Counted from the stretch's first letter, positions 1 through 15,119 are shown. The stretch: 64,000 nucleotides of DNA from an uncultured bacterium (GCA_963720265.1 CAVRET010000001.1:197916-261915), one strand, 5' to 3'. Made by a program: numbers and translations. The notes: a model not told the origin generated them from the sequence alone.

Positions 1-686
1 TGATATGATCCGGCTGCCCGACGAATGAGGGCTTCGGCTGCCGTCTCCGTACCGGCCGCGGCAATGAATATGAGGTTGGCGCGCAATGGCGCTGTTTTGG
101 TCTTGGGTTCTGGCTCCTCCTTGTTTTCTGCATCCGGCTCGCCGGCCGTACCTAAAACGAGCTGCCTGGTCGAGGTTAAAAGCAGATCGCCCAGACCGTT
201 GACAGCCCTGGCGGTGAGCGTGGGCTTGGTGGCCGTTCCGGCTAGAATCAATCTGACAATGAGTGTTTCTGATGTCGGTACGGAGCTCAGCACTTCGAAT
301 AGGCCGGCGAGTGGGTCTGCGATAGTAAAATCGGGCTCGCGTAGGCTGGCTTCGGCCGGGGTAAATTCGAGCGCGGCCATAGTAATTGCGCGGGCCTTCG
401 GCTGGTCACGGTGGTCAAGTTGAGTGAGTTCACCGGCGGGATAGGCAGCATACAGCAGATGCGTCACCTCGGCTTGCCAGTCGGCCGGAGTTGTGATGAT
501 GGTACTCATGCTGCCGGCTTCGGCTGCAAACTCGAGACTGACGGCGTTCCCCGGTTGGCCATCGAGTAATCCAGCTAGTCCTGCCATGAGCGAGCTCGTT
601 GCTTCGAGGTGTTGCTTGGCGCCCAGTGCCTCAAGCGTAGTTGGCGCAGGCCGGAATTGAACGGCGATAAGCTCTGATGCCGTCAC
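1..686 (-). CDS. Hypothetical protein, 3'-truncated by the window edge. It is the fourth gene of the ClpB-like operon.
   Basis: The minus-strand frame stays open from a GTG at 686 to position 1 with no stop. The GTG overlaps the stop of the upstream 82-aa gene by 4 nt (GTGA). The track misses it because no stop lies inside the window. Confidence 0.45.
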   Translation of the reverse strand, partial: MTASELIAVQFRPAPTTLEALGAKQHLEATSSLMAGLAGLLDGQPGNAVSLEFAAEAGSMSTIITTPADWQAEVTHLLYAAYPAGELTQLDHRDQPKARAITMAALEFTPAEASLREPDFTIADPLAGLFEVLSSVPTSETLIVRLILAGTATKPTLTARAVNGLGDLLLTSTRQLVLGTAGEPDAENKEEPEPKTKTAPLRANLIFIAAAGTETAAEALIRRAAGSY

Positions 687-931
687 GCCGCATTCTCCAG
701 ATAATCTAACAGACCGACTTGGCCGGGTTCGCTCCCTACTCCCTGAGATCTCACCGGCGCCAGGTCGATGACGTTGCTTTCGACGCTGGCTGCCACTTGC
801 GGCGCGTCTGACGCTTCGAGCCCGGTATGTGGATCTGGCTCCGATACAATGAACACCCTTACGCTACCGCGCTCTGCGTGCAGGCGCTCGGTTGGCGGTT
901 GCTCCAGGGCTGGCGTTAAGAACTCATTCAT
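683..931 (-). CDS. Hypothetical 82-aa protein, third gene of the ClpB-like operon.
   Basis: ATGA overlap with the ClpB-like gene upstream and GTGA overlap with the gene downstream. No recognisable domain. Confidence 0.4.
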   Translation of the reverse strand: MNEFLTPALEQPPTERLHAERGSVRVFIVSEPDPHTGLEASDAPQVAASVESNVIDLAPVRSQGVGSEPGQVGLLDYLENAA

Positions 932-2673
932 GTGCTAGCTCCACCGGCGGTGAGCCAGGGCTCAGTGCCGGTGATGGTTAGTGGCCCGCGGAGGCGTCCG
1001 TGCAGCAGGGCCTGAGCAATCGGCGCCTCGAAGTGAGTGGCAATGAGGCGGCGGACCGGTCGGGCGCCAAAGAGCGGATCGGCCTCGGCGCCAAGCAGGC
1101 TTGCGAGCGTTGCATCGGGGACGGCAAAGGTGAGGTTGTGTGCGGACAGTCGGTTCTCAAGCGTGGCAAGTTCGCGTTGGGCGAGCGCCACGAGATGTGC
1201 GATGGCTAGCGGCCGAAATACCAGAACGGCGTCGAAGCGGTTGATGAATTCCGGGCGGTAGGTTTCGAGCAAGAGCGGCAAAAGGCGTTCGTGGATAAAT
1301 ACCGGGCTTGTGACATCGGTACCTGTGGCAGCCGATTTAGCAATCAGCGCAGAGCCGGTGTTGGAGGTGGCGAGCACGAGTGTGCTGGTGAAATCTACGG
1401 TGTGGCCGGCCGAATCGGTGAGGCGGCCGTCGTCGAGCAGTTGCAAAAACAGGTCGAAGACTTTGGGATGGGCTTTTTCGATCTCGTCGAGCAGGATGAG
1501 CGAATTGGGGTTGCGCATGACCGGCCCAGTGAGCTGGCCGCCGGCTTCGTAGCCGACGTAACCGGGCGGTGCGCCGATGACCCGGACCGCAGCGTGCTCC
1601 TGTGCATACTCGCTCATGTCCAGGCGAATAAGCGCGTACGGATTGTTGTAGTGGTATTCGGCGAGCGCTTTGGCGGTTTCGGTTTTGCCAACGCCGGAGG
1701 GACCGAGCAAGAGGAATGAGCCGCGCGGCTTAGTAGGGTCGGCGAGACCCAAGCCGGCCCGGGCGAGACCCGCGGCAATGGTGCCCATGGCACTGGGCTG
1801 GCCGATAACGCGGCTGGTTAGCTTGCGTTCAAGCTCAGCCAGGCCTTTGGGCTTTTGATGCAGACCGCTTAGGGGTAAGCGCTCGCGCTCGGATACGACA
1901 GCCTCGATATCATCGGCTGTTACCTCGGTGCCACCTTCCAGCGAGAGCTTAACGCATGTCTCTTCAAGTAAACGGATGGCAGCGTCGGGGTTAGAGCGGC
2001 CGTGGCCGAAGCGGCTGCCGTATTCGACGGCCTTGGCGATCGCTTGCGCCCTGATGGTTTGGTGATACAGCCGTTCCAGGCGGGGGCTGGTTTGGTCGAC
2101 CATGGCAATCAATGCGGCCGGCGTTGGGGTCTGCAGTTCGAGGGCGGTGAAGGTGCGACTAAACACGTAGTCGTCGTGGAGCAGACCGTGGTAGGCCTGG
2201 CTCGTGGTTGTCACAATGAGCCGAACGTTTGGTTGGGAGGCTAGGGCCTGGAGAACCGAGAGGGTAAGTTCGAGCCGCCCGGGGTCGCCGGCAGCCAGGA
2301 GCTGGATATCTTCAATCACCACTACAGCGCTTTGCAAGCGACCGGCGGCGGCCTGGAGCGCATCAAGGCAATCGTGTAGCGGATCACCGGCGGCCAAGAG
2401 TTGCTTAATGGGTTCGGTGGTGAGGCGGTACATTGTTGGTGCTAGTGGCCGATACTGATCCTGGTGCAGCCGCAGTGCCAGGGCCTCAGTGAGGCTGGTT
2501 TTGCCGCTGCCGGGCTCGGCCACCAGGGCAGCGTGCGGGCGGGTGGGATGGAGTAGGATGCGGGCGAGGCGTTCGAGCTCGGCGTCGCGCTCCACGATGT
2601 CCATCAACTTGCCGGCGCGGGCAGCCGAGATGAGGTCGTATAGCTTGAGCGAAATAGTGGTGCCGGTGTTCAT
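928..2673 (-). CDS. ClpA/ClpB-family AAA+ ATPase with two nucleotide-binding domains and no N-domain or coiled-coil M-domain. The D1 Walker B is degenerate.
   Basis: D1 Walker A is AEPGSGKTSLTEAL, but D1 Walker B reads VVVIEDIQ rather than hhhhDE. D2 is canonical: LLLGPSGVGKTETAKALA, LILLDEIEKAHP, ATSNTGS and RPEFINRFD, matching ClpB/ClpC D2 throughout. Confidence 0.8.
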   Translation of the reverse strand: MNTGTTISLKLYDLISAARAGKLMDIVERDAELERLARILLHPTRPHAALVAEPGSGKTSLTEALALRLHQDQYRPLAPTMYRLTTEPIKQLLAAGDPLHDCLDALQAAAGRLQSAVVVIEDIQLLAAGDPGRLELTLSVLQALASQPNVRLIVTTTSQAYHGLLHDDYVFSRTFTALELQTPTPAALIAMVDQTSPRLERLYHQTIRAQAIAKAVEYGSRFGHGRSNPDAAIRLLEETCVKLSLEGGTEVTADDIEAVVSERERLPLSGLHQKPKGLAELERKLTSRVIGQPSAMGTIAAGLARAGLGLADPTKPRGSFLLLGPSGVGKTETAKALAEYHYNNPYALIRLDMSEYAQEHAAVRVIGAPPGYVGYEAGGQLTGPVMRNPNSLILLDEIEKAHPKVFDLFLQLLDDGRLTDSAGHTVDFTSTLVLATSNTGSALIAKSAATGTDVTSPVFIHERLLPLLLETYRPEFINRFDAVLVFRPLAIAHLVALAQRELATLENRLSAHNLTFAVPDATLASLLGAEADPLFGARPVRRLIATHFEAPIAQALLHGRLRGPLTITGTEPWLTAGGAST

Positions 2674-4868
2674 GCCGCGGCCCTTAGTGTGCTAGCTGCT
2701 GGCCGGCGAGCGGGTTGGCGTTTGTGGGAGGTAGTATTGAACGTGATAACGATGTCTTCGCTGTCGTCATTATCGCCGGCCTGAACCTGGTTTTGTGAGG
2801 AACTAAGTTGCTCATGACGAGCAAGCCTTCCAACCCTGCTGGGAATGCGTATTGCAGTTGGGTCTGATTTTGGTTGTGAGCTTGCTTGGGCGCCGCCGAT
2901 GTCTTCCGGGCGAAAACTAAAGTCGGTTAGCCAGTCGTGCGCAGCATCCTGGCTCTGACCGGCGGCATGATCAACCGCAGTGTGTCCAGCCGCATCTTCG
3001 ACTGGCTCGACGCCGACGTACAGGAGGGTTTCTTGTTCGGAGGCGGCCGCTTGGGTAATGGCTTCCTCGGCGGCCGTAGCCTCTGTCTCTACCTTGGCCT
3101 GCGTTAAGCTAATTCCCGTATCAGCTGGCGGAATCATGGCTTCTGTCTCGACCGGCACTTTAGCGACGACGACTTGCGCTATGGTTTCGTGCTGTGCCGG
3201 TGCAATTTGCACCTCAGATACAACGGGCGGGGCGGCCTCCTTGAGCACAGCTTCGTTTAGGTCGGGGTTTTTAACCTGGTGCGCTTCCAGTGCCGCCTCA
3301 ACGGTGGGCGCAGGAACGTCGACGGCCTCCGCCGACACAGCCTCGACACCGTCGATATCCTCATCCTGGACCGCGCCTTCTATGTTGTCGGCCGCAGGCA
3401 AGCTGGTATCTTCATTCGTGAAGGTTCGCTCAGGAGAACTCTGAGAGTCTTGTTTTGGCGTCTCTCCGATAACGGCGGCGGGCTGATCCGGTACGGCATG
3501 TACCTCGGGTGGCTTTACGGGCGGCTCAAGCTTCGGTTGGGGCGGCGCCTCTAGCCTCGGTCCGCTGTTGTCCAGCGCGAGTGAAGGTGCGGGTGTCGGC
3601 GGCTTGGGCGTCATTGTTTCCGCAGGTCGTGCGGCGGTTTTTGCTATATTGACCGCCATAGGTGGCTGCTCGTCAGAGGGACCGGCGTCATGAGGATCTA
3701 CTGCAGGCGCATTATTTTGGGGCTCCCCTACTTTTCCGTACGCTCGTGCCGGAGATGGCTCGCTTAGTGGCAGTGGGGTATACAGCTCAGGCGATACGGC
3801 CTTCGGGCTGGGTGCGGCTGGATTTGGATGGGGTTTGGGCGCCTGCTTGCCCGCATCGGCCGGCCGTGGCAGCTGATAGGCTTCCTGTTCGGGCCGAACC
3901 GGTACCGGCAAGGGGTCTTGAGCAACGGCATGGCCTGCGGCCGGCATGGCCTGATTAGGAACGGTGGGTGCCTTTGGAACCGGTGTGGCCGCGTAGATCG
4001 CTTGGAGCGTAAGCGGTTCAACGTGCTCTCCCATCTCCTGTTCATCACTGTCCTCATGGTTTTTCGCTGGTTCCGGCACCGGCGGTTTAGCTGTCTCGAC
4101 TACGACCGGGGGCGGGAGTTCTGACGGCACGAATTCGTTCGGCGCCGCAGTTGACCCACCGTTAGAGCTGCTTTCCTCGACGAGAGCTTGGATATCGGCC
4201 GATTCTGAGTCCGTCCGGATGTCGTTGTCTGCTTGATCTGCTTGAACGGTAGTAAGGGTATCATTGGCAAGGATAGCATCATGATATTCGTCGCCACCCC
4301 CTTCTACCGGGTCTTCGGTTGGCTCTTTTTCGTTCACCATTTGGCCGGTCATGATAACGAAGCTGTCACGGGTGCGCAGGTATGTGGTGATGGAAATTAT
4401 TTCATTACCCTCTTCGTCCGTTTTGGTGCGAGTTTTAACAACGGGCTCGTCACCCGGCTGCAGGGCCATGATTTCGTCTTGTAGATCCGCGTCGTGGCCG
4501 AGAATTGCATCGAGCTCGAGGTTGATTGTAACGGCTTCGCCGTTTTCCTCAGTGTCATACTTCGAGCCCCAGCTTTGCTCGCCGGCATTGTTAGTCTGGA
4601 GCTTAAAGTGAAGAGAGGCATTCATGGTTGCACCGGCCAACTCCGGCATGGTCTCGACGTGCTCCCGGAGCGTGGTCTCATCGTCTTTACGCTCGAGTTC
4701 ATCAAGAAGATCAGGCACCGGCTCCGGGTTACTGCCAGCCTCCGGCATTGCCCCTATGTCCGCCTCAGGATCGTATCGGCCGGACTCCAGCGGATCGATT
4801 TCGCCAGCGTCGAGTTCAGCCGTCATCTCCTCTTGATAGCCGGTGAGCATTTCAGCGGCTGATCCCAT
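2670..4868 (-). CDS. Acidic, proline-rich, largely low-complexity protein (about 732 aa) with a roughly 170-aa N-terminal domain. First gene of the operon.
   Basis: The start was re-assigned to ATG 4868 (MGSAAEM...), which sits 6 nt after a GAGGGAG Shine-Dalgarno; the track start at 5045 is an upstream extension. Its stop overlaps the ClpB-like start (ATGA). Composition is dominated by E/D/P/A. Confidence 0.6.
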   Translation of the reverse strand: MGSAAEMLTGYQEEMTAELDAGEIDPLESGRYDPEADIGAMPEAGSNPEPVPDLLDELERKDDETTLREHVETMPELAGATMNASLHFKLQTNNAGEQSWGSKYDTEENGEAVTINLELDAILGHDADLQDEIMALQPGDEPVVKTRTKTDEEGNEIISITTYLRTRDSFVIMTGQMVNEKEPTEDPVEGGGDEYHDAILANDTLTTVQADQADNDIRTDSESADIQALVEESSSNGGSTAAPNEFVPSELPPPVVVETAKPPVPEPAKNHEDSDEQEMGEHVEPLTLQAIYAATPVPKAPTVPNQAMPAAGHAVAQDPLPVPVRPEQEAYQLPRPADAGKQAPKPHPNPAAPSPKAVSPELYTPLPLSEPSPARAYGKVGEPQNNAPAVDPHDAGPSDEQPPMAVNIAKTAARPAETMTPKPPTPAPSLALDNSGPRLEAPPQPKLEPPVKPPEVHAVPDQPAAVIGETPKQDSQSSPERTFTNEDTSLPAADNIEGAVQDEDIDGVEAVSAEAVDVPAPTVEAALEAHQVKNPDLNEAVLKEAAPPVVSEVQIAPAQHETIAQVVVAKVPVETEAMIPPADTGISLTQAKVETEATAAEEAITQAAASEQETLLYVGVEPVEDAAGHTAVDHAAGQSQDAAHDWLTDFSFRPEDIGGAQASSQPKSDPTAIRIPSRVGRLARHEQLSSSQNQVQAGDNDDSEDIVITFNTTSHKRQPARRPAASTLRAAA

Positions 4869-5121
4869 AAAAACTCCCTCTTTGCACATGCTTGTCGTTG
4901 CTAAGAGGGGCCTACCATTGGCGTTTCCACTTCTCTTTGCGGCGAAGAGCGCGTGAACACTAACTTCTGCGGCCGCCGGTTTTCTGGCTATAACAGTTGC
5001 GCGACAGTGAGGGAGTTTCACCCTGCTTGCCCGGTTTGGCTGCAAAATTACTCTTATGTTGTGGTCTTACAATAGCAATCCACAAGATGTGGGTCAATGC
5101 TTATGTTTTGAGCAATTTAGG

Positions 5122-5748
5122 TTATGGCTGCGTGGCATGCACGGCGGTAACGGTCCAGCCTGGGCAAGCCTGGGCGGCAAACTTGGTAGTGAGGAAGCTG
5201 GTTTGGCCGGGTGGGAAGACTTTTAGGCTCGTAGAAGTATCGCTGCAGGCGCCTGGATTGTAATTGCCCGGATTCGGCAGCCCTAGCGTTGCATAAGCGG
5301 CCAGACCTGGGTCTAAGGTGAGGCTGGTAACAGGGCTGACCGTGTCGCGGTTGGCGGCCGGCCCGAGCTGCGTGCCAGCGTCATTTACGAGCGAAACACC
5401 CGGGTAGCCGGACATCGTACAGCCCTGCTGGCTGCCGTTGGTGAGCGACAGAGTGTAATATTGCGTGCCGGCTGCGCCGCTGCCGGGCAGTACGTTGGCG
5501 GTTAGCTGGCTGGCCGTGCAGGCGCTGAGCCCGGCCGTGGGCGAAGGCGCTGCTTTGGCCGAAGCAGCGGGCGCGGCTTTTTGGTTCGCAACCGGCGTTG
5601 GGCTTGGTGTAGGCTTGGAGCTACTGCCAAACCCGGATGCCAGCAGCAAGAGTACCGCGGCCACAGCTATAACGCCGGCGATAATCCAACCGGGGCTGGT
5701 CGAGAGATTCGCCTGGTGCGGTGGTGGGGATTTTGGTGGTTCGTCCAT
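5122..5748 (-). CDS. DUF4232-family exported or membrane-anchored protein.
   Basis: Pro/Ala-rich N-terminus with one transmembrane helix, then the typical DUF4232 core (CTASQL...GSGAAGTQYYTLSLTN...C...GYPGVSL). Confidence 0.55.
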   Translation of the reverse strand: MDEPPKSPPPHQANLSTSPGWIIAGVIAVAAVLLLLASGFGSSSKPTPSPTPVANQKAAPAASAKAAPSPTAGLSACTASQLTANVLPGSGAAGTQYYTLSLTNGSQQGCTMSGYPGVSLVNDAGTQLGPAANRDTVSPVTSLTLDPGLAAYATLGLPNPGNYNPGACSDTSTSLKVFPPGQTSFLTTKFAAQACPGWTVTAVHATQP

Positions 5749-5770: not shown

Positions 5771-7129
5771 TCAACGCGGAATCAAAGTGTAGAACATGGC
5801 CAGTGCCGAAGCTGCCATGGCTGCGAATGCGATCCAGATCATGGTGCGCGACAGCCAGCCGCCGCGGTGGTCGCCCATAATGTGTTGGTTGGCGTTGATA
5901 CGGGCGATGAGGAAAACGAGTGGTACGGCGGCCACGCCGTTGAAAACGGCAGTGAAGATGAGTGCTTTGATCGGGTTGATACCCATGAAATTAATGCTTA
6001 AGCCAAGCAGTGTGGCAACCGCGATAACGCCGTAAAAGCCCTTGGCTTTGCTAAATTTGCGATATAACCCCTGTTTCCAGCCAAAGGCCTCCGATAGCGC
6101 ATAGGCGGCGGACCCGGCCAATACCGGCACGCCCAGGAGGCCTAGGCCGACGACGCCGACGGCAAAGATGTCTTTGGCAACTTGGCCGGAATCGGGAAAT
6201 GATTTCACCAGCGGCTGCAGGGCTTTAGCGGCGTCGGCGGCGGTTGCGATGTTGGTTATCCCATGGCTAAATAGCACCGTGGCCGTAGTAATTATGATGA
6301 ACCACTGCGTAATCTCGGACGCGAACATACCGACGGTGGTATCAACGCGCAAGTCGCGCAGAAATTTGTGAGTCAGCCGGGGGATGCCGCCGCGTTGTGC
6401 CACCATCTTGGCCGCAATCTCCTCCTCCACTTCACCGGAGGCTTGCCAGAAAAACATATAGGGCGAAATGGTGGTGCCAAACACACCCGTGATAATGAAC
6501 AAGAAGGCGAATGTGAATTGAATATGCGGGATAACGGTGGCGCGGAAAATCTCGCCCCACGGCTCATGCACGATAAGTGCGGTCAGCGGGTACGACAAGA
6601 GTGCGAGCGACAGCCACTTAAGTAGCTTGGCGTAGTTTTTGTAGCTAACAAAGATTTCGAGCAACACGATGAGGATCGCGAACCCGACAGCCAGCCAAGG
6701 CGTGGGGACGTTAATTACAAGGTGGGCTGACGCAGCGATAGCTCCGATGTCGGCGCCGAGATTGATGGTATTGGCGGCGGCGACCAGAAAAACCACGAAG
6801 AACAGGAGTTTGCGGCTATAATTGTCCTTTACAACGCCGGCCAATCCCCGGCCGGTGACGGCTCCGATGCGGGCGCAGGCCTCTTGCACGCCGATCAGGA
6901 GCGGCAGCAGGTAAAGTGCGGTCCAAAGCTGGCCGTAGCCGAATTGCGCGCCGGTTTGCGAATAGGTAGCAATGCCGGACGGGTCGTCGTCGGCCGCGCC
7001 GGTGATAAGGCCCGGGCCCAGAATAGTCAGGAACCGGCCAAATTTGAGCTTGTGAATAACGGCCACGCCGGGAATGCCACCATGGACGGGCCCCTTGGTT
7101 GCCGCTTTCTTGCCGTTCGCCATGTGCAA
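5771..7129 (-). CDS. mntH: NRAMP-family divalent metal (Mn2+/Fe2+) transporter MntH.
   Basis: GPGLITGAADDDPSGIATYSQTGAQFGYGQLW signature and about 11 TM segments. Confidence 0.85.
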   Translation of the reverse strand: MHMANGKKAATKGPVHGGIPGVAVIHKLKFGRFLTILGPGLITGAADDDPSGIATYSQTGAQFGYGQLWTALYLLPLLIGVQEACARIGAVTGRGLAGVVKDNYSRKLLFFVVFLVAAANTINLGADIGAIAASAHLVINVPTPWLAVGFAILIVLLEIFVSYKNYAKLLKWLSLALLSYPLTALIVHEPWGEIFRATVIPHIQFTFAFLFIITGVFGTTISPYMFFWQASGEVEEEIAAKMVAQRGGIPRLTHKFLRDLRVDTTVGMFASEITQWFIIITTATVLFSHGITNIATAADAAKALQPLVKSFPDSGQVAKDIFAVGVVGLGLLGVPVLAGSAAYALSEAFGWKQGLYRKFSKAKGFYGVIAVATLLGLSINFMGINPIKALIFTAVFNGVAAVPLVFLIARINANQHIMGDHRGGWLSRTMIWIAFAAMAASALAMFYTLIPR

Positions 7130-7187: not shown

Positions 7188-9620
7188 ATGGCAGTAGCGC
7201 TTGAATATAACGGTCTTTCGAGTCGGGAAGCCCATCGGCGCCTTGAGCACGACGGGCCGAATGTAGTTGTCAGCCAAACCGAACTTACCGGCGTGCGGGC
7301 CTTCGCGCGTCAATTTGCCAACCCCCTGATTGTAATCTTACTTGTGTCGGCGGGGCTGGCGTTTGCACTTGGCGATCACGTTAGTTCGACAATTATTGTT
7401 ATCATCGTGCTGATTTCGGGTGTGCTGCAATTCGTTAATACTTACAAGTCGCAACAAGCGGCTGAGGCGCTGCGCGACCGAGTACGGATTTCGGCCTCGG
7501 TGTTGCGCGACGGCCACACGCAAGAAGTGCCGCTGGCCGACATTGTGAAGGGTGATCTCGTTCAGCTCAAGGCCGGCTCGATTATCCCGGCCGACGGCAA
7601 AGTTCTTACCGGAGAGCATCTCTATACAAATGAGTCGGCACTGACGGGCGAAAGTTTCCCCCAGGCGAAGGAGCCAGGTGGCCCGTTGTATATGGGCTCG
7701 AGTGCGGTTAGTGGCAACGCAGTTATGGAGGTGACAGCCACGGGGACGGCGACGAAATTCAGCCACATTGCGCAGACGCTGGCGGGGCGTGAGGAGCTGA
7801 CTGAGTTTGACCGTGAGATTCGCGATTTTAGTTTGCTGATTGTCAAAATCACGTTTGGACTGGTGGTGTTTATTTTTGCCGTTAATGCGATATTCAAGCA
7901 CGAAATTTTGGATGCGCTGCTGTTTAGCTTGGCGCTGGCGGTGGGGCTGACACCCGAGCTTTTGCCTATGATTATTACGCTCAATCTAACAAAAGGGTCG
8001 CTGGCCATGGCAAAGCGTAACGTGATCGTTAAAAAGCTGGCGTCAATTCAGAATTTTGGCAGTATGGATGTGCTATGCACGGACAAGACCGGCACGCTCA
8101 CCGAAGACCGGATTGTGCTTGTAAAGCATGTGGACGGCAACGGGCATGATTCTGCCAATGTTTTGCTCCTGTCGTATTTGAGCAGCCTGTATACCACAAC
8201 CTACGACAACCCCCTTGATAAAGCCATTCGTAATTATCACAGGCTTGACATCTCGGCGTACCACAAGCTTGATGAAATTCCCTTTGATTTTGAGCGCAAG
8301 CGCGATTCGATCGTGGTGAAGCATGGTGCGCGTCGGTTGCTTATTACCAAGGGTGCGCCGGAAGAGGTCATCAAGATTTGTAGACATTATGAAACCGAGC
8401 ATCATCGGTTTGACGCAGATCGCAGGAAAGCGGTGGCAGCTGAATACGAGGCGCTGAGCCAGGATGGTTTCCGCGTGCTGGCCGTGGCGGCGCGGGAGGT
8501 TGATGAACAAAAGGATTACACGCCGGCCGTTGAGACGGATATGGCGTTTGTGGGCTTTGTGGCGTTTTTGGATCCGGCTAAATCCAGCGTGTCGCAAACG
8601 CTTAAGCGCATGCGTACGTATGGCGTAGGTATCAAGATTATCACCGGCGACAACGGGCTCGTGAGCCGAAAGATTGCCCAGGACATTGGACTTGAAGTTA
8701 CTGGTTTACTTGAAGGCGCTGAAATTGAGGGGCTCAACGATCTTGAGCTGTCGGCTAAACTTGAAGAAACAACGATTTTTGCGCGCGTTAATCCAGAGCA
8801 AAAGATGCGCATCATAAAACTGCTGAAGCGGGCGGGGCATGTGGTCGGCTACATGGGCGACGGCATAAACGATGCGCCGTCGCTGTACACGGCCGACGTC
8901 GGCATTTCGGTCAACAACGCCGTGGATGTGGCTAAGGAAACGGCCGATCTTATCTTGATCCGCAAGAGTTTGGAGGATTTGATCGAGGGCGTAATCGAAG
9001 GTCGTAAGACCTATGCCAATACGCTCAAGTATCTGAAAATGGCGTTGAGTTCGAACTTTGGTAACATGTTTTCCATGGCTGGGGCCTCGATTTTCCTGCC
9101 GTTTCTGCCCATGCTGGCGCCGCAGATTCTGTTTAACAACTTGTTGTATGACGGTTCGCAGTTCGCGATTCCGCTGGACGGCGTTGATCCGGATGACATC
9201 GTGCGACCACACAAGCTAAGCATGAAATCGATCAAGAAGTTTATGTGGGTGTTTGGGCCACTCTCCAGTGTGTTTGACGTAATTACGTTCGTAGTGCTGT
9301 TGGTGGTGTTTGGATATGCGGGCAGTCGGTTTCAGACCGGCTGGTTTATTGAGTCGATTGCGACCCAGGCGTTTGTGGTGTATGTGATCCGGACCAAGCG
9401 GCTGCCGTTTGTGCAGAGCCGGCCGAGCAACTACCTATTGGCGAGTACGGTTGCAGTTGTGGTGATTGGCTGGCTGGTGGCGCTTGGTCCGATAGGGGCG
9501 GCGTTTAAGTTCACTCCCCTATCGGTACAGGCGGATTTGGCGATGCTCGGCATTGTGGCAGTTTACTTGGTGGTGACTGAGTTCGTGAAGCGAGTGTTTT
9601 TCCGCCACGTGGTACTGTAG
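7188..9620 (+). CDS. mgtA: P-type ATPase, Mg2+-importing MgtA/MgtB type (P3B).
   Basis: DKTGTLTEDRI phosphorylation motif, TGES, and GDGINDAPSL hinge. About 10 TM segments, 810 aa. Confidence 0.75.
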   Translation: MAVALEYNGLSSREAHRRLEHDGPNVVVSQTELTGVRAFARQFANPLIVILLVSAGLAFALGDHVSSTIIVIIVLISGVLQFVNTYKSQQAAEALRDRVRISASVLRDGHTQEVPLADIVKGDLVQLKAGSIIPADGKVLTGEHLYTNESALTGESFPQAKEPGGPLYMGSSAVSGNAVMEVTATGTATKFSHIAQTLAGREELTEFDREIRDFSLLIVKITFGLVVFIFAVNAIFKHEILDALLFSLALAVGLTPELLPMIITLNLTKGSLAMAKRNVIVKKLASIQNFGSMDVLCTDKTGTLTEDRIVLVKHVDGNGHDSANVLLLSYLSSLYTTTYDNPLDKAIRNYHRLDISAYHKLDEIPFDFERKRDSIVVKHGARRLLITKGAPEEVIKICRHYETEHHRFDADRRKAVAAEYEALSQDGFRVLAVAAREVDEQKDYTPAVETDMAFVGFVAFLDPAKSSVSQTLKRMRTYGVGIKIITGDNGLVSRKIAQDIGLEVTGLLEGAEIEGLNDLELSAKLEETTIFARVNPEQKMRIIKLLKRAGHVVGYMGDGINDAPSLYTADVGISVNNAVDVAKETADLILIRKSLEDLIEGVIEGRKTYANTLKYLKMALSSNFGNMFSMAGASIFLPFLPMLAPQILFNNLLYDGSQFAIPLDGVDPDDIVRPHKLSMKSIKKFMWVFGPLSSVFDVITFVVLLVVFGYAGSRFQTGWFIESIATQAFVVYVIRTKRLPFVQSRPSNYLLASTVAVVVIGWLVALGPIGAAFKFTPLSVQADLAMLGIVAVYLVVTEFVKRVFFRHVVL

Positions 9621-11289: not shown

Positions 11290-12222
11290 TTAGCTGAGAG
11301 ATTGGTGAGCGAGTGCGGCCAGCGCGTCGATGAATTTGGGATCGGTATTTGGTAGCTCGATGCGATGATACTCGATCCCAAACTGAAGGCATTGTTCGCC
11401 GGCGGCAATGTCGAGATCGTAGAGTATCTCGAGATGATCGGCCAGGAATTGAATAGGTACAATCAGCACCGCATGGTCGCCGCGGCGACGCAAGACGGCC
11501 AGGATGTCTACAAGGTCGGGCTTGAGCCAGGGCTCGGGAGTGTGGCCGGCGGACTGATAGGCACTGTAGTGCTCGGGCAGAGGGGTCGGCAGTTTGGCCA
11601 GGATGGCGTCGGTGGTGGCAGCGAGCTGCTCTAGGTAGCTTGGATCTTTGGCTACGACGCGTTCCGGGAGGCTGTGGGTGGTAAAAACTACGGCTGGTGC
11701 TTTGCCATATTTGACCGTGAACTCAGCTAGGGCGGTTTTTGTACGCGTGGTCAGTAGCTCTATAAAATCGGGTTGCGTTGGCCACGGTCCGACGAGGCGG
11801 GTTTGGTCCGGCACAAAGCCGTGCTGGCTTGCCGCGGCCAGGAAGACCTTGCGGTAGCCGTCCATTATAAATGACGAAAATTGGGGCGATAATATAATAC
11901 CGACGAGCGTTTCGGCGCCGGCTTCCCGGCACTTCCCCACTGCCTGCTCGATGAAGGGCTCGGAATGTTGCATGCCGGCCCGCCCGACGAAGTCTGCGCC
12001 CAGCTCTTTTTGCAGAAGTTTGGCCTGCTGCTCGGTAATGTCGATCAGCGGTGAGCGGCCGACGAGCCGGTAACGTTCTTCAAAGTCGGCAATGGTCTCG
12101 CTGGATGCTTTATCGCCGTAGATGTGGCGCATGTATTCCCGCACATGCTCGGCCGTGGTGGCAGAACCGTAGGTCATAATAACGACGCCGGTTTTTGGCT
12201 TAGCCGCTGACGGGTTGGGCAT
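11290..12222 (-). CDS. hemH: Ferrochelatase, probably coproporphyrin ferrochelatase (CpfC/HemH).
   Basis: N-terminal GVVIMTYGS...V..Y..IY and the TTHSLPERV motif. Sits in a cluster with hemQ. Confidence 0.85.
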   Translation of the reverse strand: MPNPSAAKPKTGVVIMTYGSATTAEHVREYMRHIYGDKASSETIADFEERYRLVGRSPLIDITEQQAKLLQKELGADFVGRAGMQHSEPFIEQAVGKCREAGAETLVGIILSPQFSSFIMDGYRKVFLAAASQHGFVPDQTRLVGPWPTQPDFIELLTTRTKTALAEFTVKYGKAPAVVFTTHSLPERVVAKDPSYLEQLAATTDAILAKLPTPLPEHYSAYQSAGHTPEPWLKPDLVDILAVLRRRGDHAVLIVPIQFLADHLEILYDLDIAAGEQCLQFGIEYHRIELPNTDPKFIDALAALAHQSLS

Positions 12223-13234
12223 GAATAAACTCCACTAAGGCTTTTAGTTTAGCATCATCGGTGTCGGGCAAGACGCCGTGGCCAAAGTTAAAAATGTAGC
12301 CGGTACGGTCTGGCAGGGTGCTGAGGAGCGCATGAGCCTGGTTTTGGATGGTCGTGAAATCGGCTAACATAACGGCCGGATCGAGGTTGCCTTGAAGGGC
12401 CTTGGTTTGGTCAATACGCTTTCGGGCGACGGCCAGATCAATGCGCCAATCGAGACCAAGAACTTCGCAGTCGACGCTGGCAAAATCGGTGAGGAGTCCG
12501 GCCGTGTCGGTGCCGAAATGGAGCCGGGGAACGTTTGCCTCGACAAGATTTTTAAAAATGCTTCCGGTGTATGGCAACACGAACTCGCGGTAGTGGCTGG
12601 GTGCGAGGCAGCCGGCCCAAGAGTCAAATAGTTGTACGGCCTGCGCGCCGGCATCAATTTGCAGCTTAAGGTAACTTGTGACAGCTGCAGTGAGTGTCGA
12701 CATGAGATCGTGCCAGGCAGCCGGATATTCGAGCATAAAGCGCTTGGTGGTAGCCCAGGTGCGGGTGGGCCGGCCTTCGATTAAGTAACTAGCAAGTGTA
12801 AACGGTGCGCCGGAGAAGCCGATGAGCGGCACTGCAAGCCCTGGGCGGAGGAGTTTAATGGTGTCAGCCAGGAACTCCAGGCGGTCCAGTTGAAGTGGCT
12901 CGAGGCGTTTTAGATCATCCGGCCCGACGATGGGTTGGTCAATAACCGGCCCGACGTTTTCCACGATCTTAACGTCAACTCCCATGGCTATCGGCAGGAG
13001 CATGATGTCGGCAAACAAAATTGCGGCATCAACGCCCAGCCGCTCAACCGGCTCGAGGCTGACCTTAGCCGCTAGCTCGGGTGTGCGCGCGATAGTGAGC
13101 ACATCGTGTTTTTCTCGAATCTTGCGGTAGCCGGGCAGGCTGCGGCCGGCCTGGCGCATGAACCAGACCGGGATATGTTCGACCGGCTCCCGGCGGGCGG
13201 CGCGCAGGAAGGCGTCGTTAAAGACGGCCGTCAT
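12200..13234 (-). CDS. hemE: Uroporphyrinogen decarboxylase.
   Basis: PVWFMRQAGRSLPGYRKIR signature. Confidence 0.9.
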   Translation of the reverse strand: MTAVFNDAFLRAARREPVEHIPVWFMRQAGRSLPGYRKIREKHDVLTIARTPELAAKVSLEPVERLGVDAAILFADIMLLPIAMGVDVKIVENVGPVIDQPIVGPDDLKRLEPLQLDRLEFLADTIKLLRPGLAVPLIGFSGAPFTLASYLIEGRPTRTWATTKRFMLEYPAAWHDLMSTLTAAVTSYLKLQIDAGAQAVQLFDSWAGCLAPSHYREFVLPYTGSIFKNLVEANVPRLHFGTDTAGLLTDFASVDCEVLGLDWRIDLAVARKRIDQTKALQGNLDPAVMLADFTTIQNQAHALLSTLPDRTGYIFNFGHGVLPDTDDAKLKALVEFIHAQPVSG

Positions 13235-13237
13235 GCG

Positions 13238-13924
13238 CTATAGCCACTCCACAAACTGGTCGAGCGGCTTGTATAGACAGGTGTAAATCGGGGTGTCGGA
13301 AAGCGTGTAGGGCCGGCCGATGAGGCTGCGCATTTCAATGACGAGATCCTGAAACTGTTCGAGCGTTGGGGTCTCATATGAAACGAGGAATTCTTGATCG
13401 TCCAGCCCGTAGGAATAGAGCAGGCACTGGCGGATTTCGGGATGGGCCAGCCCAGTTTTAATGTGCTGACCCATAACCTGGCGGCGATTGTCGGGCGAGA
13501 GCTGATGCCACTCGTGGGTTTTGGTAAATGGGTACAAAATCAGGTACGGCAGCCGGTCAGTGTAGTTTTGCATGACCTGCTCGGGCTTGCCGGTGCGGCC
13601 GGAATATTGCGACGGCCGGACGATGCCGAAGTAGGTTTGTGCTAGTTTCAGATGCCGACCCAAGCCGGAGCTGAGGAGCTTTGGCAGCTGGTTGGTGAGA
13701 GCCTCGGGATGTTCACTGCGGCACCAAAACATAAAGGTGCTGCCGGCTTTAAAACCGAGTGTGGCATAGGTCTCAATAATAATGCTGTCCAGGTCTTCGA
13801 GCCGGTTTTTGAATTCTTGGCGCAGCTTGGCTTGTTCCGCGGCGGCTTGCTGGTAGAACTCTGAGCGCAGGTTGAAGAACAGGTAATGATGATATGGCTT
13901 GGGGTCTGTCGCCGGTGCGTCCAT
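13238..13924 (-). CDS. hemQ: Coproheme decarboxylase (hydrogen-peroxide-dependent heme synthase), HemQ/ChdC of the chlorite-dismutase family.
   Basis: Cld-family fold signature and position between hemE and hemD. Confidence 0.8.
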   Translation of the reverse strand: MDAPATDPKPYHHYLFFNLRSEFYQQAAAEQAKLRQEFKNRLEDLDSIIIETYATLGFKAGSTFMFWCRSEHPEALTNQLPKLLSSGLGRHLKLAQTYFGIVRPSQYSGRTGKPEQVMQNYTDRLPYLILYPFTKTHEWHQLSPDNRRQVMGQHIKTGLAHPEIRQCLLYSYGLDDQEFLVSYETPTLEQFQDLVIEMRSLIGRPYTLSDTPIYTCLYKPLDQFVEWL

Positions 13925-13984
13925 ACGGGCATTATACCAAGCCGCGCTTAAGATTGGCTTAGGGTTTTTCTACGATTCTCCAGT

Positions 13985-15112
13985 CTAATAGAGTGGCAGC
14001 CCTTCAAATTGCGGGTCGTCCATGCGGGCGACTGCGACTAGTTTGAGCTCGAGACGGGTATGCAGATCAACTGGAATGACGAAGAATTTAACATTACCGT
14101 CGCCGACCCGGACGCCAAACCGGCCGTATTTGAGCTCGACAGGCACGTTCATGAATTGCAAGTGGTCGCCGGCCATAAAACCGACGTATGCGCCTTGCGC
14201 CGGGGTGACCTCCAGCACGGCTATGCGCTGCCATGATTGCACCACTCGTTCGCCCTGGAGTTGGGTGGCTCCCAGCGGCATGGCACCGGCGGCAGTGTCG
14301 CCTGGAACGGTTACGACCGGCATGATGGGCCAATGTTCGTCGCTGGCTAGATTGTGGCTGGTTTTTAGGTCGTCCACAGCTGTCATTATACTCTGAATGG
14401 TTGGCTCGACGGCTTGGACAATGTGCTGAAAACCATAGGCTCTGGCGGCTGCCGTGGTGGTGGGACCGATAGTGAAAACTGGTTGATGCCGCACGGTGAT
14501 GAGTAATGCTGAGTTGATCGTGTGTATGAGGCCGGTGACGGCGGAGGGGCTGGCAAATATCAGACATTGGACTCGGCCTTCGAGGAGGTAACGTTCAAGT
14601 TTGGCGGAGCGTTCGCGGCGCGGGAGTGTGTGGTAAACGTTGATTTCGGTAACAACGGCGCCGCGGGCGCGCAGCGTGGCGGCAGGCTCATCTGCTGGGA
14701 TGTCGGTGCGAGCCACCAGAATGCGCTGGCCGGCAACGGGTATTAGTTGCTCTGCCAGCATGGCAGCAGTGGCGGGCTTGGCAACGAACGCCACGGTTAG
14801 CCCATTGCGCTTGGCGGCTACGGCGCCGGCGGGACCAACGGCGGCCACGCGCGGCGCGGCGCTCAGGTCGGCGCCAGCGGCCTGAGCTAGGGTTTTCAGT
14901 GCTGCGGCGGCTTTTCCACTCGTAACAATGAGCCAGTCGAACGGCGTTAGGTTGTGAAGGGTTGAGGTGATCTCGGGAGTTAGCTGGGTCGGCGTAGTTT
15001 TGATCATAGGGGCCGAGAGCACCGGCCAACCGTGCTGCTTTAGTGCTGCGGCCCAGCGACGATTGCCGGAGGCGTCGCGAGTGAGTACGATGACTCGGTA
15101 ACCTACGGCCAT
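13985..15112 (-). CDS. hemD: Uroporphyrinogen-III synthase (HemD, about 245 aa) fused to a roughly 125-aa C-terminal domain of unknown function.
   Basis: The HemD fold runs through ...QSIMTAVDDL. It is followed by DEHWPIMPVVTVPGD...VELKYGRFGVRVGDGNVKFFVIPVDLHTRLELKLVAVARMDDPQFEGLPLY, which matches nothing I recognise. Confidence 0.7.
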   Translation of the reverse strand: MAVGYRVIVLTRDASGNRRWAAALKQHGWPVLSAPMIKTTPTQLTPEITSTLHNLTPFDWLIVTSGKAAAALKTLAQAAGADLSAAPRVAAVGPAGAVAAKRNGLTVAFVAKPATAAMLAEQLIPVAGQRILVARTDIPADEPAATLRARGAVVTEINVYHTLPRRERSAKLERYLLEGRVQCLIFASPSAVTGLIHTINSALLITVRHQPVFTIGPTTTAAARAYGFQHIVQAVEPTIQSIMTAVDDLKTSHNLASDEHWPIMPVVTVPGDTAAGAMPLGATQLQGERVVQSWQRIAVLEVTPAQGAYVGFMAGDHLQFMNVPVELKYGRFGVRVGDGNVKFFVIPVDLHTRLELKLVAVARMDDPQFEGLPLY

Positions 15113-15119
15113 GTGCGGC

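What the first reader, a model, noticed from the sequence alone, without database searches (positions are those of the whole stretch)
1..4868. Tightly coupled four-gene operon: an acidic disordered protein, a ClpB-like ATPase with a dead D1, and two unknown proteins
Every consecutive gene pair overlaps by 4 nt (ATGA, ATGA, GTGA), implying stoichiometric co-translation. The AAA+ protein has the complete ClpB/ClpC D2 but lacks both the N-domain and the M-domain. Its D1 Walker B reads IEDI rather than DE, so D1 probably binds but does not hydrolyse ATP. It is paired with a 732-aa E/D/P-rich protein that has a structured roughly 170-aa N-terminal domain. I do not recognise this combination as any known chaperone, secretion or defence module.
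Basis: partly seen in the sequence, partly recalled or inferred. Interest (0 to 1): 0.55.

Follow-up and report, generated by a model that had tools for sequence, protein, structure and literature searches.

The report
B12-riboswitch-controlled Clp/coupling-protein ATPase operon
A conserved operon of ultra-small Patescibacteria (Saccharimonadia) encodes a long acidic disordered protein, a stripped-down ClpA-like unfoldase, a tiny protein and a membrane-less relative of type IV secretion coupling ATPases.

Summary
On the minus strand lie g1 (4868..2670, 732 aa, pI 4.2), g2 (2673..928, 581 aa), g3 (931..683, 82 aa) and g4 (686..<1, cut by the window edge). The overlaps are ATGA/ATGA/GTGA.

- **g2** is a two-ring Clp/Hsp100 ATPase. 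It has no N-domain, no M-domain and no ClpP loop. D2 is canonical. D1 is degenerate but conserved: Walker B is ED or DD, and there is no pore-loop Tyr.
- **g4** is not unknown. Full length is 726 aa. It is a soluble type IV coupling protein (T4CP)-like ATPase with a TrwB fold (TM 0.64) and a DUF8128-like N-domain.
- **g1** has no detectable homologue among 1.8 billion proteins. Its positional orthologues share a ~100-aa N-domain and a C-terminal strand + Arg-rich + Ala-Ala/Val tail.
a cobalamin riboswitch (4969-5043, minus strand) lies in the g1 leader. All 17 distinct loci with upstream DNA have one, including two distant genomes (38-39% identity).
- **Neighbours:** three loci adjoin an AdoCbl-dependent ribonucleotide reductase gene; one of them (L088) also has a CobA adenosyltransferase gene.

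The four-gene order is kept widely. One subclade keeps only riboswitch-g1-g2. The biochemical role is inferred, not shown. No paper describing it was found.

The parts
5069..5097 (-). Promoter-like site: TTGACC, 17-nt spacer, TG-TATTGT
   Evidence: 9 of 12 matches with an extended -10. One site was found against 0.3 expected. This is a weak consensus match only.
4969..5043 (-). Cobalamin (AdoCbl-II, RF01689) riboswitch aptamer in the g1 leader
   Evidence: 46 bits against a gathering score of 36.5, E 6e-8, full model 1-81. Present in all 17 loci with upstream DNA (window, 14 other loci at or above the RF01689 gathering score, L001 at 35.5 bits, RF01482 in L093). On a 15-sequence alignment the Rfam structure is 96.7% paired and 4 pairs show compensatory changes.
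4869..4968 (-). Expression platform. A hairpin CCCUCUU...AAGAGGG plus a U5 run overlaps the RBS (GAGGGAG, 4880-4874). The RBS is also complementary over 10-11 nt to aptamer L5/P5 (AAACUCCCUC).
   Evidence: duplex -18.3 kcal/mol against -7.9 +/- 2.5 for shuffles. A leader of about 80-105 nt is kept in 9 loci. L110 has a terminator-like hairpin after the aptamer. The direction of switching is inferred.
2670..4868 (-). g1: 732-aa acidic, Pro/Ala-rich, mostly low-complexity protein
   Evidence: No Pfam, NCBIfam or PADLOC hit. phmmer found only itself at a convincing E-value in 1.84e9 representatives; the one other hit was a 3.6e-4 local match in the Pro-rich region. A positional orthologue lies upstream of g2 in every locus that holds the DNA upstream of g2.
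4329..4622 (-). g1 conserved N-terminal domain (about residues 83-180)
   Evidence: There is pairwise BLAST similarity among orthologues, and an HMM built from 7 orthologues hits the others. The window copy matches weakly (E 0.011) but shares the pattern. No PDB or Pfam match.
2673..2768 (-). g1 C-terminal motif: acidic run, strand DIVITF, Arg-rich tail HKRQPARRPAASTLR, terminal AAA
   Evidence: The pattern D[ILV]x[IV]x[FI] + 4-7 Arg/Lys + [AT][AV]-COOH holds in 11 of 13 Saccharimonadia orthologues; L088 (...QVNRV) and L089 (no clear strand motif) fit only loosely. All 13 end in Ala or Val. L110 ends RRYQKAA. No other ORF of the 58 listed in the window (90 aa or more) ends in AA; the 82-aa g3 also does.
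928..2673 (-). g2: 581-aa two-ring Clp/Hsp100 ATPase without N-domain, M-domain or ClpP loop
   Evidence: About 66 Saccharimonadia clusters at 46-76% identity, all 566-585 aa when full length. 32% identical to the window's ClpG-like paralogue.
2302..2325 (-). g2 D1 Walker B, VVVIEDIQ (ED in place of DE)
   Evidence: hhh[IV]EDIQ throughout the Saccharimonadia family. It is IDD in distant members. Long Clp relatives have IDE[IL]H.
2494..2520 (-). g2 D1 Walker A, AEPGSGKTS
   Evidence: the P-loop Lys and Thr/Ser are kept. The first Gly is Ala in part of the family.
1468..1704 (-). g2 D2 catalytic core: Walker A GPSGVGKTE, pore loop GAPPGYVGY, Walker B LILLDEIEKAH
   Evidence: all canonical and near-invariant. 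Sensor 1 (SN), Arg finger (RPEFINRFD) and sensor 2 (GARPVRR) are also canonical.
683..931 (-). g3: 82-aa acidic protein (pI 4.3) ending ...ENAA
   Evidence: A 72-139-aa ORF sits at this position in all four-gene loci. The Saccharimonadia copies end in AA (6 of 6). No family hit.
1..686 (-). g4, N-terminal 228 codons of a 726-aa soluble T4CP-like ATPase (full length = P0122, locus L090)
   Evidence: Pfam TrwB_AAD_bind 26.7, TraG-D_C 24.6 and T4SS-DNA_transf 22.8 bits, all above gathering score. AF2 pLDDT 92. Foldseek: TrwB TM 0.64, E 5e-14. The N-domain model (pLDDT 87) weakly resembles the VirB4 N-terminal domain. No transmembrane segment.

Best explanation
This is a cobalamin-repressed operon, specific to Patescibacteria, for a dedicated two-motor protein-handling module.

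**Shown**
- A cobalamin riboswitch lies in the leader of a translationally coupled operon.
- The operon encodes (i) a fast-evolving acidic, apparently disordered protein with a small N-domain and a conserved basic/Ala-Ala C-terminal tail, (ii) a ClpA-like double-ring ATPase, (iii) a small protein, and (iv) a T4CP-derived ATPase with intact Walker A/B, an all-alpha insertion and no membrane anchor.
- In the ClpA-like ATPase only D2 has a full catalytic and pore-loop set.

**Inferred mechanism**
1. When cobalamin is scarce, the leader allows expression. When B12 is bound, the RBS or a terminator hairpin shuts it off.
2. The g2 hexamer grips the C-terminal Arg-rich/Ala-Ala tail of g1. This would resemble the way ClpX and ClpA read ssrA-type (..LAA) or MuA-type (RRKKAI) C-termini.
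3. g2 threads the ~500-residue acidic chain using D2. D1 serves as a nucleotide-bound assembly ring.
4. g4, where present, takes the unfolded chain or docks it to the organism's Gram-positive-type T4SS, which lacks a coupling protein of its own.
5. g1 is thus deployed at or through the envelope as part of a B12-starvation, host-dependent nutrient-acquisition response.

The general claim (a B12-regulated dedicated ATPase module acting on g1) is much better supported than the export step. The confidence given (0.35) is for the whole mechanism including export. For the general claim alone I would put about 0.8.
For: **Riboswitch**
- Window hit: 46 bits against a gathering score of 36.5.
- Same position and strand in all 17 distinct loci that hold DNA upstream of g1.
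- This includes two distant genomes (L093, L110) whose AAA+ is only 38-39% identical. One of them uses the other riboswitch class, RF01482.
- The structure is kept with compensatory changes.
- The RBS is complementary to aptamer L5/P5. L110 has a terminator-like hairpin.

**Link to B12 use**
- An RTPR-like AdoCbl-dependent reductase is a divergent neighbour in L088, L089 and L101. L088 also has a CobA adenosyltransferase.

**Synteny**
- The four-gene order is present in L001, L003, L087, L093, L095, L097 and L110 as well as the window.
- 18 contigs are shared between the g2 and g4 families.

**g2 as a specialised unfoldase:**

**g1 tail**
- The full motif is kept in 11 of 13 Saccharimonadia orthologues and the Ala/Val terminus in all 13, although the rest of g1 is unalignable.
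- Among 58 window ORFs only g1 ends in AA; the 82-aa g3 (too short for that list) does too.

**g4 as T4CP-derived**
-.
- Its nearest plasmid relative sits in a real T4SS cluster.

**Literature**
- The Saccharibacterial T4SS lacks a recognisable coupling protein (PMC10633639).
- CPR genomes hold thousands of orphan T4CP homologues, 'possibly exapted' (bioRxiv 10.1101/2025.01.22.634366).
Against: - No protein of the operon has a signal peptide or membrane segment.
- No T4SS gene lies in the window or in any fetched locus.
- g4 lacks the N-terminal membrane anchor that defines working T4CPs.
- One Saccharimonadia subclade (L005, L088, L089, L102, L103, L105) keeps riboswitch-g1-g2 without adjacent g3-g4. 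The core function therefore does not need an adjacent g4.
- No B12-binding motif or known B12 family is present in any of the four proteins.
- Recognition of the g1 tail by g2 is an analogy, not a test. The last residues also overlap the g2 Shine-Dalgarno and spacer sequence.
- The direction of riboswitch control (off with B12) is assumed from the family.
- The L5-RBS complementarity is clear only in the window's closer relatives.
Confidence: 0.35

Rival explanations
1. Cytoplasmic cobalamin salvage or trafficking. g2 would be an ATP-driven remodeller that strips or reloads corrinoid on B12 proteins. Candidates are the AdoCbl-dependent reductase or captured host proteins. This would be functionally analogous to the reactivases of AdoCbl enzymes (DdrAB, GdrAB, EutA). 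g1 would act as its adaptor or cofactor acceptor. g4 would be an accessory.
For: - The riboswitch is conserved in 17 of 17 loci.
- The module sits next to RTPR-like RNR genes in three loci, with a CobA gene as well in L088.
- All four products are predicted soluble.
- The g1-g2 pair persists alone in one subclade.
- It is established knowledge that AdoCbl enzymes need ATP-dependent reactivation.
Against: - No Clp-type ATPase is known in B12 trafficking.
- None of the four proteins has a recognisable B12-binding fold or motif.
- It does not explain the long acidic disordered chain or the T4CP-like partner.
- Reactivases are usually co-regulated with their enzyme, not by a B12 riboswitch.
Confidence: 0.2
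2. A B12-independent bypass for deoxynucleotide supply. When the AdoCbl-dependent reductase is idle, g4 (related to DNA-pumping coupling proteins) would drive uptake or processing of foreign or host DNA. g1 would act as an acidic DNA-mimic regulator that g2 removes.
For: - In B12 auxotrophs, B12 riboswitches commonly control B12-independent substitutes (metE, nrd genes; established knowledge).
- g4 has the TrwB/TraD fold of DNA translocases.
- Saccharibacteria are naturally competent and lack de novo nucleotide synthesis (PMC10633639).
- g1 is strongly polyanionic.
Against: - The subclade that lacks adjacent g3-g4 keeps the riboswitch and g1-g2.
- No nuclease, DNA-binding or competence gene is linked to the module.
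- The DNA-mimic idea has no direct support.
- g4 has no membrane anchor.
Confidence: 0.12
3. An ordinary proteostasis paralogue. g2 would be just a trimmed ClpC-type chaperone with a co-chaperone-like partner. The riboswitch and the T4CP-like neighbour would carry no special functional meaning.
For: - D2 is fully canonical and closest to ClpB/ClpC.
- Reduced genomes often trim domains.
Against: - A full-length ClpG/ClpK-like disaggregase is present in the same window.
- The riboswitch and gene order are kept down to 38% identity.
- The D1 pore loop and catalytic Glu are lost in a conserved way.
- The ClpP loop is absent.
Confidence: 0.08
4. An anti-phage defence system or mobile-element cargo. 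It would be built from a ClpB-like ATPase and a HerA/FtsK-superfamily ATPase.
For: - PADLOC gave partial hits of g2 D2 to PDC-M37B and DolB.
- g4 is structurally similar to HerA of SIR2-HerA.
- The flanking genes differ between genomes.
Against: - The PADLOC hits cover only the generic D2 ATPase core.
- No nuclease, effector, integrase or transposase is linked.
- Identity across the class falls in a graded series (76 to 38%), the pattern expected of vertical descent.
- A metabolite riboswitch in front of a defence system would be unprecedented.
Confidence: 0.04

Closest known systems
Class-1 Clp/Hsp100 unfoldases (ClpA, ClpC, ClpB, ClpV)
   Same: - Two AAA+ rings.
- D2 is 40-55% identical to ClpB/ClpC D2, with all catalytic motifs, the GYVG pore loop and the D2-small domain.
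- Overall topology is ClpA-like, with no M-domain.
   Different: - No N-domain.
- No ClpP-docking [IVL]G[FL] loop.
- D1 Walker B is ED or DD, and D1 has no pore-loop Tyr and a single Arg.
- Always encoded right after a private acidic partner and behind a B12 riboswitch.
Type IV coupling proteins (TrwB, VirD4/Cagbeta, TraD, DotL)
   Same: - Nucleotide-binding domain plus all-alpha insertion.
- Pfam TrwB_AAD_bind, TraG-D_C and T4SS-DNA_transf above threshold.
- Foldseek TM 0.64 to TrwB.
- 33% identical to a T4CP inside an actinobacterial T4SS cluster.
   Different: - No N-terminal membrane anchor.
- Carries instead a ~250-300-aa soluble DUF8128-like domain, or none at all in L093 and L110.
- No virB4, relaxase or channel genes nearby.
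- Coupled to a Clp ATPase.
Cobalamin riboswitch regulons (btuB/btuFCD, cob, metE, nrd; PPE2-cobQ1-cobU of Mycobacterium)
   Same: - Rfam-grade Cbl aptamer in the 5' leader, on the same strand, next to the RBS.
- Neighbours include B12-using genes.
   Different: - The regulated genes belong to no known B12 synthesis, transport or substitute-enzyme family.
- There is no membrane component.
Secretion systems that pair an AAA+ ATPase with an FtsK/HerA-type ATPase or use a Clp ATPase (T7SS EccA + EccC; T6SS ClpV)
   Same: - The idea of a dedicated AAA+ remodeller working beside a ring translocase on private substrates that carry C-terminal signals.
   Different: - The ATPase subfamilies are not homologous: EccA is CbbX-like and EccC is FtsK-like.
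- No membrane core is encoded here.
- This is an analogy only.
C-terminal recognition tags of ClpX/ClpA (ssrA ..ALAA; MuA ..RRKKAI) and Arg-rich C-terminal T4SS signals (Agrobacterium VirE2/VirF)
   Same: - The g1 tail combines a basic cluster with a small-hydrophobic C-terminus (RRPAASTLRAAA, RRARTAAV, RKARAKSLAV).
   Different: - The resemblance comes from memory of the literature. No binding test was possible.
- The tail follows a conserved beta-strand motif that those tags lack.

Membership tests
Clp/Hsp100 class 1 (ClpA/B/C) | Two tandem AAA+ modules with a D2 of the AAA_2 type and a D2-small domain | tested here: met
   AAA_2 176 bits, ClpB_D2-small 46.8 bits, AAA_lid_9 37.8 bits. ClpA model aligned over residues 13-562.
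Clp/Hsp100 class 1 (ClpA/B/C) | Clp_N substrate/adaptor-binding N-domain | tested here: not met
   there is no Clp_N hit, and query residue 12 aligns to ClpB residue 158.
ClpB/ClpC subfamily | Coiled-coil M-domain inserted in D1 | tested here: not met
   the alignment jumps from about ClpB 403 to 519.
ClpP-partner unfoldases (ClpA/ClpC/ClpX) | [IVL]G[FL] ClpP-docking loop in the last AAA+ ring | tested here: not met
   the loop region reads SALIAKSAATGTDVTSPVF. No hydrophobic-Gly-hydrophobic tripeptide is found in the family.
Clp/Hsp100 class 1 | Catalytically complete D1 (Walker B hhhhDE, pore-loop aromatic residue) | tested here: not met
   Walker B is ED or DD, and the pore loop reads LLxxGDSLRxC with no Tyr. 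Whether D1 still hydrolyses ATP cannot be tested here.
Type IV coupling protein (T4CP) | RecA-like nucleotide-binding domain with Walker A/B plus the all-alpha domain | tested here: met
   GQTGTGKST and YIDEFQN motifs, a helical insertion at residues 406-535, and TrwB TM 0.64.
Type IV coupling protein (T4CP) | N-terminal transmembrane anchor | tested here: not met
   the maximum 19-residue hydropathy is 1.31 for g4, against 2.44 for a membrane-anchored CPR relative (P0179).
Type IV coupling protein (T4CP) | Encoded with, or acting with, a T4SS channel and/or relaxase | tested here: not met
   No virB4, virB6 or relaxase gene lies in the window or in any module locus. Presence elsewhere in the genome could not be tested.
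Cobalamin riboswitch (Rfam clan CL00101) | Covariance-model score at or above the curated threshold | tested here: met
   46 bits against 36.5. In total 16 of 17 loci are at or above their family's threshold: the window, 14 others for RF01689, and L093 for RF01482 (53.4 against 50). L001 is 1 bit short.
Cobalamin riboswitch (Rfam clan CL00101) | Conserved secondary structure with compensatory changes, located in a 5' leader | tested here: met
   96.7% paired against 26-50% for slid controls, with 4 pairs changed on both sides. The aptamer ends about 80-105 nt before the g1 start codon.
Cobalamin riboswitch (Rfam clan CL00101) | Binds a cobalamin and switches expression | not testable with these tools
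   Needs in-line probing or ITC, and reporter assays.
Known anti-phage systems (PADLOC) | Full-length match of the components to a defence-system model | tested here: not met
   only the g2 D2 core matches PDC-M37B and DolB. g1, g3 and the g4 N-terminus have no hit. Full-length g4 was not scanned.

The most novel reading that the evidence does not exclude
The operon would be a previously unseen type of vitamin-responsive nutrient-piracy device of epibiotic ultra-small bacteria.

- Under B12 starvation (a proxy for 'no host'), a ClpA-like motor and a coupling-protein-derived motor would handle a private ~500-residue acidic disordered protein by its C-terminal tag.
- They would feed it into, or reel it back through, the coupling-protein-less T4SS to obtain cobalamin or to establish host contact.
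- That would make it both a new class of riboswitch-controlled genes and the missing substrate-delivery arm of the Patescibacterial T4SS.
Probability: 0.15. Interest if true: 0.92.

Novelty: categorically new. Interest (0 to 1): 0.78.

Why it matters
- **An unexplained dependence.** Patescibacteria make up a large share of bacterial diversity. They depend on hosts for most metabolites, and how they obtain them is largely unknown.
- **A direct clue to function.** A metabolite riboswitch is one of the few sequence features that tells what a set of unknown genes responds to. Here it marks a conserved, otherwise unannotatable module as part of the B12 response, in organisms whose ribonucleotide reductase is AdoCbl-dependent in at least three of the loci fetched here.
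- **Testable hypotheses.** B12 uptake or sparing in these bacteria becomes testable by experiment.
- **A role for orphan genes.** It gives a candidate role to some of the thousands of 'orphan' T4CP homologues in candidate phyla radiation (CPR) genomes.
- **A natural Clp variant.** The ClpA-like ATPase has a catalytically reduced D1 ring and a dedicated intrinsically disordered client. This is of interest for AAA+ mechanism.

Tried and rejected
- **Looking up the window's g2 by exact sequence.** It is not on record. The source contig was reached only through g4 (L090).
- **Genome-contig scan with g2.** The DEIEKAH-type pattern saturated on generic ClpC genes.
- **Word-index search with the 228-aa g4 fragment.** It returned nothing. 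A three-sequence profile worked.
- **g1 homology.**
  - phmmer over 1.84e9 proteins, Pfam, NCBIfam and PADLOC gave nothing.
  - A profile of the N-domain against PDB and Pfam also gave nothing.
- **Tandem repeats in g1.** None.
- **A Mg/Co-chelatase-like (ChlI/ChlD, CobS/CobT) reading.** It was prompted by the acidic Pro-rich protein and the nearby heme genes. I rejected it because g2 is Clp-type, not BchI/MoxR-type, and there is no vWA domain.
- **ClpP-dependent degradation.** Disfavoured because there is no docking loop.
- **L5-RBS kissing as a general switching mechanism.** Complementarity is significant only in the window's closer relatives.
- **The Southlakia model organism (PMC10633639 supplements).** It has an 860-aa AAA ATPase (SEML1_0700, non-essential) and two DUF8128-type T4CP-like genes (SEML1_0142 essential, SEML1_0293 not). 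They are not arranged as this module, so its Tn-seq data do not test it.

Full report
**1. What is in the sequence**

The feature is on the minus strand. The genes are g1 (ATG 4868 to TGA 2670, 732 aa), g2 (2673-928, 581 aa), g3 (931-683, 82 aa) and g4 (GTG 686, running off the window start). They overlap by ATGA, ATGA and GTGA.

g1 has 18% Asp+Glu, 11.5% Pro, 13.9% Ala and a pI of 4.24. None of the four products has a hydrophobic segment long enough for a membrane helix.

By its closest relatives the source organism is a Candidatus Saccharimonadia bacterium (TM7, Patescibacteria). The identical g2 protein is on a 567,794-bp contig.

**2. The AAA+ protein (g2)**

- The ClpA model aligns over residues 13-562, and the ClpB/ClpC D2 matches at E ~1e-99.
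- The alignment to T. thermophilus ClpB begins at ClpB residue 158 and skips about 403-519. Both the N-domain and the M-domain are missing.
- I aligned 116 relatives. The 78 short, N-less proteins all keep a canonical D2: GPSGVGKTE, GxPPGYVGY, LLDEIEKAH, SN, RPEFINRFD, GARPVKR.
- The same proteins share a distinctive D1:
  - the P-loop is kept;
  - Walker B is hhh[IV]EDIQ instead of IDE[IL]H;
  - the pore loop has no tyrosine (LLxxGDSLRxC);
  - there is one arginine instead of two.
- In two distant members the Walker B is IDD.
- No [IVL]G[FL] ClpP-docking tripeptide exists.
- These are conserved traits of a family with 46-76% identity within Saccharimonadia and 38-43% beyond, at a constant length of about 547-585 aa. 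This is not decay.
- The window also encodes a full-length ClpG/ClpK-like disaggregase (31070-33853, minus strand; 1229 bits to the ClpG model; 32% identical to g2). g2 is therefore a specialised paralogue.
- Whether D1 hydrolyses ATP cannot be decided from sequence.

**3. The fourth gene (g4)**

- A Logan assembly of the same organism (L090) gives the complete protein (P0122, 726 aa).
- It passes the Pfam thresholds for TrwB_AAD_bind, TraG-D_C and T4SS-DNA_transf. Its best NCBIfam hits are TraD and VirD4-like models.
- An AlphaFold2 model built on 114 relatives has pLDDT 92 and pTM 0.87.
- Foldseek places residues ~300-700 on TrwB (E 5e-14, TM 0.64 on the target, rmsd ~5 A). Cagbeta, DotL, VirB4 and HerA follow.
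- The helical block at 406-535, between Walker A (GQTGTGKST) and Walker B (YIDEFQN), corresponds to the all-alpha domain typical of coupling proteins.
- The N-terminal ~250 residues are an alpha/beta domain (model pLDDT 87). The only weak structural match is the VirB4/TrwK N-terminal domain (E 1.6e-3).
- In relatives this region carries precomputed hits to DUF8128 (PF26449).
- More than 2,600 relatives exist, mostly 800-850-aa Patescibacterial proteins. The one checked (P0179) has an N-terminal membrane helix, which g4 lacks.
- The nearest plasmid relative is 33% identical. It sits in a genuine Gram-positive-type T4SS cluster with PrgI, a VirB4-like ATPase, a relaxase-like protein and NlpC/P60.
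- g4 is thus T4CP-derived. It fails two membership features of working T4CPs: the membrane anchor and linkage to a T4SS.

**4. g1 and g3**

- g1 has no family hit. phmmer found only itself at a convincing E-value among 1.84 billion representative proteins; the one other hit was a 3.6e-4 local match in the Pro-rich region.
- Every locus that holds the DNA upstream of a g2-type gene has, immediately upstream, a 520-950-aa protein with 15-21% Asp+Glu.
- These positional orthologues share two short elements:
  - an N-terminal ~100-aa domain (pairwise BLAST links; an HMM from seven of them hits others at 1e-9 to 1e-64; the window copy only at 0.011, but with the same pattern). It has no PDB or Pfam match;
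  - a C-terminal motif made of an acidic run, a strand D[ILV]x[IV]x[FI], then 4-7 Arg/Lys within about 15 residues, and a terminal [AT][AV]. The full motif is present in 11 of 13 Saccharimonadia copies and the terminal Ala/Val in all 13.
- The distant L110 copy ends RRYQKAA.
- Of 58 ORFs in the window, only g1 ends in Ala-Ala.
- g3, which is too short for that list, also ends in Ala-Ala. So do its six Saccharimonadia counterparts.
- The middle ~500 residues are unalignable, Pro/Ala/Glu/Thr-rich and free of tandem repeats. I infer disorder from composition only.

**5. Synteny**

- The four-gene order occurs in the window, L001/L095, L003, L087 and L097, and probably L098 (g4 present, g3 not resolved).
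- It also occurs in two distant genomes, L093 and L110. There the AAA+ is 38-39% identical and g4 lacks the N-domain.
Several are under 12 kb.
- A subclade at 48-55% identity (L005, L088, L089, L102, L103, L105) has only g1-g2 at the locus.
- Flanking genes differ between genomes.

**6. The riboswitch**

- An Rfam scan of the whole window gave a single hit. It is an AdoCbl-II cobalamin aptamer at 4969-5043 on the minus strand (46 bits, threshold 36.5, full-length). It lies between a promoter-like site (5097-5069) and the g1 start.
- The same element sits directly upstream of g1, on the same strand, in every one of the 17 distinct loci for which that DNA is available:
  - the window and 14 other loci have RF01689 at or above threshold;
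  - L001 scores 35.5 bits;
  - L093 has the classical AdoCbl family RF01482.
- On an alignment of 15 copies the Rfam helices are 96.7% paired, against 26-50% when slid. Four pairs show compensatory changes.
- A DUF8128-T4CP locus without the Clp gene (L091) has no riboswitch.
- In the window the RBS is followed by a U-run, can pair with an upstream CCCUCUU, and is also complementary over 10-11 nt to the aptamer L5/P5 strand (-18.3 against -7.9 +/- 2.5 kcal/mol).
- L110 has a terminator-like hairpin after the aptamer.
- These features fit the usual 'off with ligand' design, but they do not prove it.

**7. Link to B12 use**

- In L088, L089 and L101 the divergent neighbour is a 770-aa reductase. 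Its best match is the adenosylcobalamin-dependent ribonucleoside-triphosphate reductase model (260 bits).
- In L088 a CobA-type adenosyltransferase lies next to it.

**8. Interpretation**

What I regard as established:
- the operon is a conserved, vertically inherited, cobalamin-riboswitch-linked module of Patescibacteria;
- it is built from a D2-driven ClpA-like ATPase, its private acidic partner, a small protein and a soluble T4CP-derived ATPase.

What is inferred:
- the g1 tail is a recognition tag for one of the two motors. This is by analogy with ssrA/MuA tags for ClpX and ClpA, and with Arg-rich C-terminal T4SS signals, both taken from my knowledge of the literature;
- the module is expressed when B12 is scarce;
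- it serves B12 or host-nutrient acquisition, possibly by delivering g1 to the T4SS.

Published work reports two relevant points:
- the Saccharibacterial T4SS lacks a recognisable coupling protein (PMC10633639);
- CPR genomes hold 5,713 VirD4-like homologues, of which only 148 lie near virB4, 'possibly exapted' (bioRxiv 10.1101/2025.01.22.634366).

The export step is the weakest link, for three reasons:
- there are no membrane parts or linked T4SS genes;
- g4 has no anchor;
- one subclade manages with g1-g2 alone at the locus.

The rivals are listed with their tests: cytoplasmic cobalamin salvage or reactivation, a DNA/dNTP bypass, plain proteostasis, and defence.

**9. Comparison with the known, and novelty**

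- Each ATPase belongs to a known superfamily, but each fails defining features of the functional families (see the membership table).
- The regulated genes belong to no known class of B12-riboswitch targets.
- Searches of the paper library found nothing describing this module. The terms covered DUF8128, cobalamin riboswitch with Patescibacteria or CPR, Saccharibacteria with cobalamin, and riboswitch with Clp or T4CP.
- The Southlakia model strain does not carry it in this form.
- I therefore rate the system as lying outside known kinds. Its biochemical role remains unproven.

Noticed in passing
window 31070-33853 (-): A full-length 927-aa Clp ATPase with Clp_N, D1, M-region and D2. It matches the stand-alone disaggregase ClpG/ClpK models end to end (1229 and 1169 bits, below their 1900 cut-offs). 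Such a disaggregase is unexpected in a reduced Saccharimonadia genome.
   Followed up: partly
window 11290-16022 (-); L003 14547-15572: A coproporphyrin-type heme biosynthesis cluster: ferrochelatase, uroporphyrinogen decarboxylase, HemQ-like heme synthase, HemD and HemC. It lies about 6-11 kb from the operon. In L003, glutamyl-tRNA reductase (hemA) starts 52 nt after g4. Tetrapyrrole synthesis is unusual for Patescibacteria, and its closeness to a B12-regulated operon may not be accidental.
   Followed up: partly
window 34757-37765 (+), 38109-41192 (-), 41262-43109 (-): Three large paralogous proteins (1002, 1027 and 615 aa) end in LSxWGT. Two of them (38109-41192 and 41262-43109) carry a C-terminal dockerin-type domain; the first (34757-37765) gave no Pfam hit. 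One also has a right-handed beta-helix. They may be surface or adhesion proteins.
   Followed up: no
L091 6762-10541 and 12503-15856: In another Patescibacterium, a membrane-anchored DUF8128-T4CP gene is preceded by a 411-aa acidic, low-complexity protein. That protein has a basic patch and ends ...NKAA. Two such T4CP-like genes flank a sigma-factor gene, and in Southlakia SEML1_0293 likewise lies next to the sigma-factor gene SEML1_0294. Acidic 'AA-ended' proteins may be general clients of this T4CP family. No riboswitch is present there.
   Followed up: partly
window 5771-7129 (-) and 7188-9620 (+): An NRAMP-type divalent-metal transporter and a Mg-type P-type ATPase are divergently arranged just upstream of the riboswitch region. 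The 208-aa protein at 5122-5748 has an N-terminal membrane anchor and no family hit.
   Followed up: no
L087 14827-14932; L097 10953-11051; L098 12004-12102: SAM (S-box) riboswitches lie a few kb downstream of the module. In L087 the riboswitch precedes S-adenosylmethionine synthetase.
   Followed up: no
L090 3320-5799 and L001 6993-9422: A conserved run of four small unknown genes follows g4 in the two closest genomes. One resembles a phosphoribosyltransferase and one a ferredoxin/flavin reductase. The run is not conserved in more distant loci, so it is probably not part of the module.
   Followed up: partly
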